From Candidatus Jordarchaeales archaeon (lineage in GTDB: Archaea > Asgardarchaeota > Jordiarchaeia > Jordiarchaeales > Freyrarchaeaceae), in assembly GCA_038889235.1 (NCBI GenBank), contig JAWAHN010000002.1, positions 374,356-406,355 of the forward strand: 32,000 nt of DNA, given 5' to 3'. The notes beneath the pieces were generated by a model, which was given only the letters and a program-made list of their open reading frames with translations, did no database searches and had not been told where the DNA came from. Position 1 is the first letter of the stretch; each line of letters begins with the position of its first letter. Of the stretch, positions 3,653 to 6,849 are shown piece by piece. Made by a program: the position numbers and the translations under genes.

Positions 3653-4672
3653 CTATATTAATCCAAGCTCCTTTCTTCTGTCTATCACCTCTCTCACGTC
3701 GCTACCCGTTCCTATTATCGTTACCGGCTTTTTCAAGCAGTCTTCTACTTGCTCTATAAACTCTACGGCTGCCCTCGGAAGCTCACTAAAGCTTGTCGCC
3801 CCCTTGCACTCATGATACACCACGTCAAGCTTAGTTATTGCTATCTGTGTCGCCCCGTTCAACCTTACTGCCTTCTTCGCAAGCTCGAAATTGAAGGGGG
3901 CAGCCCTTCTCTTCCTACCAGTAACAGTCGCCACTTCAAGCCACCCCCTCCTGGCAGCCTCCTCCTCGCTAAGCTCTCCTGGCAGGGGTCCTCCCCCAAC
4001 CCTCGTCACATATGCCTTAAAAACCACGAGAACCTCGTCCACTTTAGTCGGTCCTATGCCAACGTCAGCACACGCTTGAGACGCGGTCGTGTCCTTGCTA
4101 GTCACATAGGGGTACGTTCCATGGTATAACGACAAAAAGGTTCCCTGAGTGCCCTCTATTATAACATTATCCCCGCGGTCTATCGCCTCATTAACCTCAA
4201 GGGATACGTCAGTAAGGTAGGGCTTCAACTCCTCGACATCCCTAGCAAGCTTGACGGTCCTCAAAGCTCTCTCGGCGTTGCATGGACCGCACCCAGTGCC
4301 CGTGCTTCCAATTTTCCCCGAGAGGTGTTCAGATCCCTTATCCTGTTCTATATGTCTCTGCTCTATTATCGCGCAGTTGTAGTCTACGCCAACCCTACCC
4401 CAAACCCCGGTAGTGTTAACTTCGTCGAGAAATATTCTCGGATCCACGAGGACGCCTGCTCCTATGAGGACGCGCGCCCCCTCAAAAACAAAACCGCTCG
4501 GTATCTGTCTAAGCTTGAACTTTTTGCCGCCAAACTCTACGGTGTGTCCTGCATTAGTCCCGCAGCCCCCTCTCGCAGCCACAGAAACTCTATCCTTTAA
4601 GGCTAGGTAGGATACGATCTTCCCCTTGCCTTCGTCTCCGAAGAACCCTCCTACGACGACGTAGCATGTCAA
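3653..4672 (-). CDS. purA: Adenylosuccinate synthetase (short archaeal type)
   Basis: GGFFGDEGKGK, NAGHT, IGSTGTGCGP, EGTQG, YPYVTS, TRVGGGP and TVTGRKRR motifs. Confidence 0.97.
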   Translation of the reverse strand: MTCYVVVGGFFGDEGKGKIVSYLALKDRVSVAARGGCGTNAGHTVEFGGKKFKLRQIPSGFVFEGARVLIGAGVLVDPRIFLDEVNTTGVWGRVGVDYNCAIIEQRHIEQDKGSEHLSGKIGSTGTGCGPCNAERALRTVKLARDVEELKPYLTDVSLEVNEAIDRGDNVIIEGTQGTFLSLYHGTYPYVTSKDTTASQACADVGIGPTKVDEVLVVFKAYVTRVGGGPLPGELSEEEAARRGWLEVATVTGRKRRAAPFNFELAKKAVRLNGATQIAITKLDVVYHECKGATSFSELPRAAVEFIEQVEDCLKKPVTIIGTGSDVREVIDRRKELGLI

Positions 4673-4879
4673 GGCAGACCACCCGGATACTTTTAACCCA
4701 ACTCAAAAAGCGTTGACAACCTTAAAAACAGTTCGCCTCGACAACATAAAAGACACTGTACGTGAAAGCCGGAAAATAGTGGTTTCAAACACACGCTCAA
4801 CCGGCACGTGTAGGTCAGCCTCGGCTTCAGTCTTGAACCCGAAAAAGTATTAATGGCTAGGGGTAACTGTTTACCTAGT

Positions 4880-4949
4880 GGTGGGTGGCGATGATTTGAA
4901 AGAGAGACTGAACCGCGTGACGAAAAGGCATTTGAATGATGCCCCCACC
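4880..4949 (+). ncRNA. Box C/D guide sRNA (variant C/D boxes); D guide complementary to 23S rRNA CAAAUGCCUU
   Basis: C box ATGATTT 4891-4897, D' CTGA 4908-4911, C' GTGACGA 4917-4923, D ATGA 4936-4939. The U-A pair compensates for the usual G-C in the K-turn. Terminal stem GGTGGGTGGCG/TGCCCCCACC. TATA-like TATTAA lies about 27 nt upstream. Confidence 0.75.
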
Positions 4950-4971
4950 TTCTCTTCTGTTATTGTAAGCG

Positions 4972-5027
4972 TCAGCTCAATTAGGTCTCCTCATGGCTGC
5001 CGCTCGGGAGACCGTCGTAGTCATCAT
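4972..5027 (-). ncRNA. Box C/D guide sRNA; D' guide complementary to 23S rRNA AGACCGUCGU
   Basis: Minus strand reads ATGATGA-ctacgacggtctc-CCGA-gcggcagcc-ATGAGGA-gacctaattgag-CTGA (56 nt). C and D boxes are canonical, C'/D' are good, and guides are 12-13 nt. TATA-like TTTAAG at 5055-5060. Confidence 0.88.
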
Positions 5028-5202
5028 CTACAACTAACTTTAAGCTAAAACCCTCTTAAAGATGTTTCTGAAGTATTGAAAGGAAATTTAAGTACGAGGA
5101 GACAACAAATTTATTTTAAGAAGCTAAGTTGATGTTTGTCAAAAGGGCGTCTCACCCTCGTTCTGCGCAGCTCCTACCTAACTTCTTTCAGGTGGGTTTC
5201 TG

Positions 5203-6849
5203 ATGACGAAGTACGTCATGGTGACCGGTGGAGTTATGTCTGGTATAGGTAAGGGAGTTACAACGGCCTCCATAGGGAAGCTTTTCCAGTTTAGGAACTA
5301 CGACGTCGACGTGATAAAAATCGACCCCTACCTCAACGTTGACCCGGGAACTCTTAACCCCGTTGAGCACGGAGAAATTTTCATAACGGAAGAGGTCTGG
5401 GAGTTTAAGCCCGTTGAAGGTTTTAAGCTAACAATCTCGGAGCTAGACCAAGACTTCGGCACCTATGAGCGCTTTCTAGGGAAGACCGTCTCGCCAGAGC
5501 AGAACATAACCTCCGGCCAAGTCTACTTGACAGTAATACTTCAGGAGAGGCGTGGCGAGTTTCTCGGAAAGACTATCCAGATAATACCGCACATAACCGA
5601 TGAGATAAAGAGAAGGATAAGGACTGTAGCAGAGAAGAAGAAACCAGATGTGCTACTTATAGAGATCGGTGGGACCGTTGGAGACATAGAAGCGATGCCC
5701 TACCTGGAAGCTGTAAGACAGTTTAGGTTGGAAGAAGGAAAGAACAAGACCGCTCTGGTTCACGTCACATATGTTCCCTTCCTAGAGACGGTTAAGCAGC
5801 AGAAGTCCAAGCCCACGCAGCACAGTGTAAGAACGCTCCAAGGAATGGGCCTACAGCCGGACGTTATAGTGTGCAGGTCTGAGAAGCCCCTGACCGAGGA
5901 CGTGAAGAGGAAACTTAGCCTTTACTGCAACGTACCCCCTGAGGCAGTTATATCAAACCCTGACATAGACATCGTGTATAAGCTCCCCCTGTTGTTTGAA
6001 GAGCAGGGGCTAGGAGACTACCTATGCAACTTGTTAGGCTTACCCCCAAAGGCTCCAGACACGGAGAAGTGGAGGAAGCTCGTGTCGCTTTACGAGAACA
6101 CTAGAGAAGTCGTTAGGATAGCTATGCCTGGAAAGTACACGCAAATAGTGGACAGCTACATCAGCATTAACGAGGCCATAAGGCATGCGGCTGCCTTTTT
6201 CGGGGCGCGGCCTTACATAGAGTGGATAGACGCCTCACTTTTCGAGGAAGACCCTGGGAAGGTCGAGCTACTTGACTCGTTTGACGGAATCCTACTAACT
6301 CCGGGGTTTGGTGTGAGGGGCGTTGAGGGAATGATCCTCGCCGCAGAGTATGCCATAGAGGAAAAGATACCCTACCTCGGAATATGCTTCGGAGGACAGC
6401 TGCTCTTCATAGCCTTCTGCAGGAGCGTCCTTGGTTTAAGGAATGCTAATAGCTCCGAGGTAGACCCGAACACCCCCTACCCCGTAGTAGACCTCCTGCC
6501 TGAACAGAAGAACGTCAAGGATAAGGGAGGCACAATGCGCCTAGGCGGGCACAAAGTTTACATAGTTAGGGGGAGCAAACTTTGGGAGGCTTACAAGCAG
6601 GATGTTGTCGTCGAGCGCTTCAGGCACAGGTACCACATAATACCCGAGTACGCTCGAAAAGCAGAAGAGGCTGGCCTCAGGGTCTCGGCCTACGATGCGA
6701 CGGGCAAAATAATAAACGCCATAGAGCTCGAAGAAGGGTGGCTTGTCGGCGTACAGTTCCACCCGGAGTTCAAGAGCAGGCCGGATAATCCAAGCCCGGT
6801 ATACAAGGCCTTCATAGAGGCTTCACTCAAAAGAAGGAAGAAAGTGTAA
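5203..6849 (+). CDS. pyrG: CTP synthase (divergent, with an insertion in the synthase domain)
   Basis: TGGVMSGIGKG, KIDPYLNVDPGT, EIGGTVGDIE, KSKPTQHSV, and the glutaminase triad GICFG, FHPEF. Confidence 0.95.
   Translation: MTKYVMVTGGVMSGIGKGVTTASIGKLFQFRNYDVDVIKIDPYLNVDPGTLNPVEHGEIFITEEVWEFKPVEGFKLTISELDQDFGTYERFLGKTVSPEQNITSGQVYLTVILQERRGEFLGKTIQIIPHITDEIKRRIRTVAEKKKPDVLLIEIGGTVGDIEAMPYLEAVRQFRLEEGKNKTALVHVTYVPFLETVKQQKSKPTQHSVRTLQGMGLQPDVIVCRSEKPLTEDVKRKLSLYCNVPPEAVISNPDIDIVYKLPLLFEEQGLGDYLCNLLGLPPKAPDTEKWRKLVSLYENTREVVRIAMPGKYTQIVDSYISINEAIRHAAAFFGARPYIEWIDASLFEEDPGKVELLDSFDGILLTPGFGVRGVEGMILAAEYAIEEKIPYLGICFGGQLLFIAFCRSVLGLRNANSSEVDPNTPYPVVDLLPEQKNVKDKGGTMRLGGHKVYIVRGSKLWEAYKQDVVVERFRHRYHIIPEYARKAEEAGLRVSAYDATGKIINAIELEEGWLVGVQFHPEFKSRPDNPSPVYKAFIEASLKRRKKV

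What the first reader, a model, noticed from the sequence alone, without database searches (positions are those of the whole stretch)
4880..4949. Variant box C/D sRNA with a compensatory K-turn change, aimed at a eukaryote-conserved LSU methylation site
Seen: C box AUGAUUU and D box AUGA (a U-A pair replaces the usual G-C), good D'/C' boxes (CUGA, GUGACGA), a GC-rich terminal stem, and a TATA-like element at a fitting distance. The D guide AAGGCAUUUG (4925-4934) is complementary to CAAAUGCCUU, the H69/H71-proximal 23S sequence of TACK-like archaea (E. coli-equivalent 1935-1944). The +5 rule predicts 2'-O-methylation at A1938-equivalent. From memory this is yeast 25S Am2281 (snR13; human SNORD15 site). 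Standard box searches could miss it because both terminal boxes deviate. The D' guide (GAAAGAGAGA) gives only a weak 7-bp match to nearby CUCUCUU, so its target is open.
Basis: partly seen in the sequence, partly recalled or inferred. Interest (0 to 1): 0.7.

Follow-up and report, generated by a model that had tools for sequence, protein, structure and literature searches.

The report
Asgard box C/D methylation guide RNA
This is very probably a real small guide RNA of a hot-spring Asgard archaeon that marks one ribosomal RNA adenosine for ribose methylation, the same base that is methylated in yeast, plants and humans, but counterparts are already described in Sulfolobus, Ignicoccus and Pyrobaculum, so it is a new member of a known kind.

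Summary
Observation confirmed. Window 4880-4949 is a complete C-D'-C'-D sRNA of a Jordarchaeales (Asgard) archaeon, between purA and pyrG. The D guide makes 10 Watson-Crick pairs with the host 23S; N+5 gives A2064 (E. coli A1938, yeast Am2281/snR13, human Am3785/SNORD15). The U-A change is a real compensation: this K-turn pair is Watson-Crick in 51 of 52 homologs (G-C, U-A, A-U; C-G seen later). It is not special to this RNA: Sulfolobales homologs and published Pyrobaculum sRNAs have it too. The guide is widespread in TACK and Asgard genomes and already listed for Sac-sR125, Iho sR109 (target A2204) and Pca sR40. The weak D' guide most likely aims at helix 69 (U1923-equivalent), because partner guides of the family nearly always target H68-69. 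A second sRNA faces it on the other strand (C2590-equivalent, SNORD35/snR73 site); the pair is syntenic in several Asgard lineages. Expression and methylation were not shown. The scan has found this family before in other genomes. Of some interest: it is a candidate archaeal ancestor of a LECA snoRNA, but convergence is not excluded.

The parts
4840..4855 (+). BRE + TATA-like promoter element of the sRNA (start site inferred near 4877-4879)
   Evidence: Sequence; purine-rich BRE plus TATA-like element at a similar distance in G001-G004 and f15 homologs. Function inferred.
4880..4889 (+). 5' arm of terminal stem
   Evidence: Pairs with 4941-4949; stems of different sequence in Odinarchaeia-like, Freyarchaeum-like and f13 homologs
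4891..4897 (+). Box C, AUGAUUU (U at position 6 instead of G)
4898..4907 (+). D' guide; 7 WC pairs with helix 69, predicted target host 23S U2049 (E. coli U1923 equivalent); weak
4908..4911 (+). Box D', CUGA
4917..4923 (+). Box C', GUGACGA
4924..4935 (+). D guide; 10 WC pairs with host 23S, predicted target A2064 (E. coli A1938, yeast A2281, human A3785)
4936..4939 (+). Box D, AUGA (A pairs with U6 of box C)
4941..4949 (+). 3' arm of terminal stem, followed by a pyrimidine-rich tract (possible terminator, untested)
4963..5033 (-). Second, convergent canonical box C/D sRNA (C 5027-5021, D' 5007-5004, D 4975-4972); D' guide aims at host 23S C2715 (E. coli 2590, SNORD35/snR73 site); D guide unconserved, no clear target
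3653..4672 (-). purA (adenylosuccinate synthetase), conserved flank
5203..6849 (+). pyrG (CTP synthase), conserved flank
   Evidence: translation (identified by me from the sequence); same neighbour in relatives

Best explanation
An independently transcribed, about 70-nt archaeal box C/D sRNA. Boxes C and D form a K-turn (two sheared G.A pairs, U.U, then U-A in place of G-C, and a further U-A); D' and C' form a K-loop. L7Ae, Nop5 and fibrillarin assemble on it. The D guide pairs with the H69-H71 linker of pre-23S rRNA and fibrillarin 2'-O-methylates A1938-equivalent by the N+5 rule. The D' guide pairs more weakly 15 nt upstream on the 3' strand of helix 69, holding the same rRNA region and perhaps methylating U1923-equivalent. 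Shown here: anatomy, complementarity, conservation, covariation, synteny, presence of the three protein genes. Inferred: transcription, protein binding, methylation.
For: 10 WC pairs, best rRNA match by far, 0/300 shuffles. Guide invariant across Asgard and TACK homologs: 30 of 400 Asgard genomes match a strict pattern with 0 reversed-pattern controls (a few of the 30 are chance hits in ORFs); 72 of 80 listed GTDB hits are TACK or Asgard. C6:D1 pair WC in 51/52 homologs, shuffled mean 23.7; 24/24 in an alignment, covariation 0.68 against at most 0.30 for slid partners. purA/pyrG synteny in Jordarchaeales, a Baldrarchaeia genome and family f15, purA in Odinarchaeia-like genomes. Fibrillarin, Nop5 and L7Ae-family genes present. 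RNA-seq-detected counterparts Sac-sR125 and Iho sR109 with predicted target A2204 (PMC4644070). D' match passes the relaxed second-guide rule of Lui et al. (20+14=34, threshold 32, within 100 nt; PMC6009581).
Against: No transcript or methylation evidence for this organism. Nop5 makes base-specific contacts with the C of box D and the last GA of box C (PMC5389607), and both are changed here, so activity or register could differ. The D' guide is short, a 7-bp match somewhere in rRNA is common (92/300 shuffles; near the D target 0.02-0.06), it is broken next to the +5 base in G001, and it is unconserved in Odinarchaeia-like homologs. Homologs are related, so covariation counts are not independent events.
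Confidence: 0.88

Rival explanations
1. A real sRNP that mainly works as an rRNA folding chaperone for H69-H71; the variant K-turn gives little or no methylation.
For: Loss of the Nop5-read G-C pair. Freyarchaeum-like and f13 homologs carry a guide mismatch at -3 (G006 23S unchanged). Conserved non-methylating guides exist at H68-69 in Pyrobaculum.
Against: The +5 U:A pair and the guide-to-box register are invariant in all homologs seen, which is what selection for methylation predicts. In yeast tests a D' box lacking the 5' C still methylated.
Confidence: 0.06
2. The two stacked U-A pairs let Nop5 dock one pair further, giving a five-nucleotide D box and a second methylation at U1939-equivalent, as yeast U18 (D' AUGA) and snR13 modify two adjacent bases.
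For: All five Jordarchaeales copies have both U6-A and U7-A pairs; precedent for alternative registers with AUGA-type boxes (PMC5389607).
Against: No direct evidence. The C7 pair is unpaired in 16 of 24 homologs. The yeast cases concern C'/D' motifs with extra features.
Confidence: 0.05
3. Chance arrangement of short motifs, or a dead relic.
For: No Rfam match; no RNA evidence.
Against: Conservation, covariation, synteny and promoter conservation.
Confidence: 0.01

Closest known systems
Sulfolobus acidocaldarius Sac-sR125 and Ignicoccus hospitalis sR109 (Dennis et al. 2015, PMC4644070 supplement)
   Same: Same layout, same D guide core AAGGCAUUUG in the same register, same predicted target (their A2204 = E. 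coli A1938), second guide aimed at the H68-69 region.
   Different: Their box C keeps G6 (Iho has the canonical G-C pair; Sac has D = CAGA) and their D' guide targets G2172 (E. coli G1906). Here the pair is U-A and the D' guide is a short H69 3'-strand guide. Asgardarchaeum and f15 homologs keep the G1906 partner together with the U-A pair.
Pyrobaculum calidifontis sR40; Pca sR120 and sR32 (same supplement)
   Same: sR40 carries the same guide core; sR120 (C GUGAUUU, D AUGA) and sR32 (C AUGAUUG, D AUGA) carry the same U-A terminal pair.
   Different: sR40 has the guide in the 5' half; sR120 and sR32 have unrelated guides.
Eukaryotic SNORD15/U15 (RF00067) and yeast snR13 (RF01223), clan CL00045
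   Same: Same modified base (human Am3785, yeast Am2281, Arabidopsis Am2282). The SNORD15 consensus guide lies before box D in the same register (weak 14.4-bit match of an Odinarchaeia-like homolog to model positions 116-141).
   Different: Much longer RNAs with no similarity outside guide and boxes; far below the family threshold of 75 bits; snR13 uses its D' guide and modifies two bases.

Membership tests
Archaeal box C/D methylation guide sRNA | Boxes C, D', C', D in order in 50-70 nt | tested here: met
Archaeal box C/D methylation guide sRNA | K-turn potential: tandem G.A pairs, 3b:3n U.U, paired 4b:4n, terminal stem | tested here: met
   GA/GA invariant; 4b:4n WC in 51/52 homologs; stem. 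The consensus G-C identity itself is replaced by U-A.
Archaeal box C/D methylation guide sRNA | At least 9 WC pairs with rRNA or tRNA including the +5 position | tested here: met
   D guide 10 WC pairs, A2064
Archaeal box C/D methylation guide sRNA | Second guide with a nearby target (double guide) | tested here: inconclusive
   7 bp at U1923-equivalent; passes the relaxed rule but local chance is 0.02-0.06 and it is broken in G001
Archaeal box C/D methylation guide sRNA | Host encodes fibrillarin, Nop5, L7Ae | tested here: met
Archaeal box C/D methylation guide sRNA | Expressed as a small RNA | tested here: inconclusive
   Two RNA contig sets laid; neither covers the sRNA, but they barely hold this organism and contigs cannot show absence
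Archaeal box C/D methylation guide sRNA | Binds L7Ae and directs 2'-O-methylation | not testable with these tools
   Needs gel shift, reconstitution, RiboMeth-seq
Sac-sR125 / Iho sR109 guide group | D guide to A1938-equivalent | tested here: met
Sac-sR125 / Iho sR109 guide group | D' guide to G1906-equivalent | tested here: not met
   D' guide matches H69 3' strand instead; so it shares the guide module, not the whole double guide
SNORD15 (RF00067) / clan CL00045 | Covariance model score at or above gathering threshold | tested here: not met
   No match for the window; 14.4 bits against 75 for a homolog
SNORD15 (RF00067) / clan CL00045 | Guides the equivalent LSU adenosine | tested here: met
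   Same guide core and register; site equivalence in PMC11542601 and PMC3511168

The most novel reading that the evidence does not exclude
The A1938 guide module has been inherited vertically from the common ancestor of TACK and Asgard archaea and is the direct ancestor of eukaryotic SNORD15/snR13. With its syntenic neighbour (the SNORD35/snR73-site guide) it would give two LECA snoRNA families a traceable archaeal origin, where Hoeppner and Poole 2012 found only sR12/SNORD43 and two weak cases.
Probability: 0.35. Interest if true: 0.6.

Novelty: new member of a known kind. Interest (0 to 1): 0.3.

Why it matters
As a single gene it is an unannotated but ordinary guide RNA. Its use is comparative. 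It shows that the 4b:4n pair of the C/D K-turn tolerates all four Watson-Crick pairs within one guide family, so sRNA searches in Asgard genomes should score pairing and not consensus. [quoted passage not shown] 2015; Neumann et al. 2024). That bears on whether individual snoRNA families predate eukaryotes, but a 10-nt guide dictated by its target cannot separate descent from convergence.

Tried and rejected
Rfam at gathering and E-value thresholds: nothing for this sRNA but an 18-nt fragment. BLAST hits in family f2 (L010, L012, L013) were chance matches in coding DNA; a second f2 candidate lay antisense to an ATP synthase-like ORF; the true f2 homolog was found only with the covariance model. 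My first idea that the Asgardarchaeum/f15 partner guide pairs with helix 71 was wrong: it targets G1906. D' guide against tRNAs: matches of 7-10 bp with G.U pairs in a partial ARAGORN set of only 14 records, not located to mature tRNA, judged uninformative. Public RNA runs: contigs only, no cover of the sRNA, organism barely present; no evidence either way. The sigma-70 promoter scan does not apply to archaea. Two genome-wide guide scans were too strict to give a full sRNA census, so I could not test whether this genome's guides overlap eukaryotic sites more than TACK guides do. No convincing homolog was seen in the sampled genomes of Heimdallarchaeaceae (f5), Thorarchaeaceae (f7), f14 or f21; the best hits lay in ORFs. 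This is 'not found in those searched' with a weak 27-position model. A prevalence search across Thermoproteota failed on a handle error and was not repeated. Names of several Asgard families (f12, f13, f15, f16, f21-f26) could not be fixed, so I cannot say whether Hodarchaeales have the guide. Literature searches found no paper on Asgard box C/D sRNAs; the library is incomplete.

Full report
Observation. The sequence at 4880-4949 reads as stem, box C (AUGAUUU, 4891-4897), a 10-nt D' guide, D' (CUGA, 4908-4911), a 5-nt loop, C' (GUGACGA, 4917-4923), a 12-nt D guide, box D (AUGA, 4936-4939) and stem. It lies in the non-coding gap between divergent purA (3653-4672, minus) and pyrG (5203-6849, plus). 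A BRE/TATA-like element sits at 4840-4855, and similar elements precede the homologs. A strict four-box layout with a paired K-turn stem occurs 4 times in the 2.1-Mb genome and 0, 0, 0, 0 and 1 times in five shuffles. Rfam has no family for it.

Host. The three genomes of the same genus carry sequences identical to those in GTDB records named Jordarchaeia QC4, Jordarchaeum LHC_1308 and Jordarchaeales JZ-1, so the host is a Jordarchaeales Asgard archaeon. The DNA is held by hot-spring metagenomes of at least two studies. Fibrillarin, Nop5 and two L7Ae-family genes are present.

Target of the D guide. The one 23S gene contains CAAAUGCCUU. Guide positions -2 to -11 make 10 Watson-Crick pairs; the next best rRNA match scores 6, and none of 300 shuffled guides reaches 10. 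N+5 gives A2064. In the alignment of Dennis et al. (PMC4644070) this is column 2204, E. coli A1938. The Rfam SNORD15 consensus ends in the same guide core before box D in the same register. Hoeppner and Poole (PMC3511168) group U15 and snR13 in clan CL00045 at one conserved site, and Neumann et al. (PMC11542601) equate Arabidopsis Am2282, human Am3785 and yeast Am2281, with no archaeal entry.

The K-turn change. In K-turn terms the changed pair is 4b:4n, normally G-C (PMC5689011). Across 52 homologs with the guide before box D it is G-C in 31, U-A in 15, A-U in 5 and unpaired in 1; shuffling gives a mean of 23.7 paired. In a 24-sequence alignment it is paired in all, and slid partners score far lower. 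Freyarchaeum-like genomes add C-G. Homologs are related, so these are not independent counts, but four pair types in separate lineages are hard to get without selection for pairing. The variant is not rare: it occurs in Sulfolobales, Desulfurococcaceae and Asgardarchaeum homologs, in another sRNA candidate of this genome (C1:231236) and in published Pyrobaculum sRNAs sR120 and sR32. One caveat: Nop5 reads the C of box D and the last GA of box C base-specifically (PMC5389607), so the U-A pair restores geometry but not those contacts. The host Nop5 appears to keep the corresponding Q and R motifs (by eye).

Distribution. A strict pattern matched 30 of 400 Asgard genomes with no reversed-pattern control hit; a few were chance. 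A scan of all GTDB species gave 99 hits; of the 80 listed, 72 are TACK or Asgard (Sulfolobales, Desulfurococcales, Thermoproteales, Thermofilales, Bathyarchaeia, Nitrososphaeria, Loki-, Jord-, Asgardarchaeia and others), 8 are bacterial hits without the second half of the layout, and none is a named euryarchaeon. A covariance model added further Asgard families, among them Baldrarchaeia and Njordarchaeales. The guide module sits in the 3' half in some lineages and in the 5' half in others, as described for other archaeal sRNAs. It was not found in the sampled Heimdallarchaeaceae, Thorarchaeaceae, f14 and f21 genomes.

Already known. The supplement of Dennis et al. 2015 lists RNA-seq-detected Sac-sR125 and Iho sR109 with this guide and predicted targets A2204 (D) and G2172 (D'), and Pca sR40 with the guide core in the 5' half. 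The main text does not discuss the site or link it to eukaryotes. Asgardarchaeum and f15 homologs keep the G1906-type partner guide of Sac-sR125, which argues for one old double-guide family.

The D' guide. Its best rRNA match is 7 WC pairs to CUCUCUU in helix 69, predicting U2049 (E. coli U1923), 15 nt from the D target. A 7-bp match anywhere in rRNA is common (92/300), near the D target less so (0.02-0.06). The pair of guides scores 34 under the relaxed rule of Lui et al. (threshold 32). Most partner guides I could map target H68-69: G1906, A1912/A1913, C1920. Freyarchaeum-like and f13 homologs have the same AGAGAG core one base further from D', predicting C1922 (read by hand), so a one-base indel probably shifted the register. 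The guide is broken at -4 in G001 and unconserved in Odinarchaeia-like genomes. I take pairing with H69 as likely (about 0.7) and methylation of U1923 as uncertain (about 0.4).

Neighbour. A canonical C/D sRNA faces it on the minus strand (4963-5033). Its D' guide makes 10 WC pairs plus one G.U with host 23S and predicts C2715, column 2864 of Dennis et al., E. coli 2590, targeted by Iho sR27 and Pca sR30. It aligns weakly with SNORD35, the Cm4536/Cm2959 site, also conserved across human, yeast and plants. The two genes are convergent neighbours in Jordarchaeales, Odinarchaeia-like and f15 genomes and tandem neighbours in one f13 genome.

Expression. Not shown. Two RNA contig sets do not cover the locus but barely hold the organism.

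Comparison and verdict. It works like, and by every testable feature is, an archaeal box C/D methylation guide; it shares its main guide with Sac-sR125 and Iho sR109 and is not a member of the Rfam SNORD15 family by score. Hoeppner and Poole found one clear and two weak archaeal counterparts of eukaryotic C/D families and could not exclude convergence; this site was not among them. The breadth and synteny seen here make it a fair candidate for an ancestral guide, but similarity to SNORD15 is confined to what the target dictates. Earlier notes of this scan describe the same family in other genomes and one follow-up reached the same class; these are not independent support. New member of a known kind; interest 0.3.

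Noticed in passing
window 4963-5033, minus strand: Second canonical box C/D sRNA aimed at the C2590-equivalent (SNORD35/snR73 site); linked to the first in four Asgard families; in f15 it also has a U-A terminal pair.
   Followed up: yes
G000:C1:231236, minus strand: Another four-box sRNA candidate with a U-A terminal pair (C GUGAUUG, D AUGA); target not determined.
   Followed up: no
G000:C2:58150, plus strand: Canonical four-box sRNA candidate with no 9-bp rRNA match in my scan; possibly tRNA-directed.
   Followed up: no
L032-L038 (family f9) around 1500-1590: Lokiarchaeia-type homologs carry the guide in the 5' half and a 35-40 nt insert between D' and C', longer than usual archaeal sRNAs and closer to eukaryotic snoRNA length.
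   Followed up: partly
L187, L188, L182 near 1450-1525: Freyarchaeum-like and f13 homologs have a guide mismatch at -3 although the G006 23S target is unchanged; f2 has a C-G terminal pair, f13 a C.A mismatch there.
   Followed up: partly
L021 near 1520: Family f12 genome G030 holds two tandem copies of the A1938 guide sRNA.
   Followed up: no
L066, L067, L117: In Thermocladium the A1938 sRNA directly follows another C/D sRNA, a tandem pair.
   Followed up: no
L113: A contig labelled Bathyarchaeota carries the Lokiarchaeia-type locus; possible mislabel or misbin.
   Followed up: no
window 9664-11085: Adjacent E1-like and E2-like ubiquitin-system ORFs, typical of Asgard genomes (recognised from the translation only).
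   Followed up: no
G000:C1:894187-897271 and C2:20259-21755: 23S and 16S genes are unlinked, on different contigs.
   Followed up: no
G000:C2 about 284000-286007: Nop5 lies in an open frame of 663 codons, longer than the roughly 400 residues I recall for archaeal Nop5; start codon not checked.
   Followed up: no
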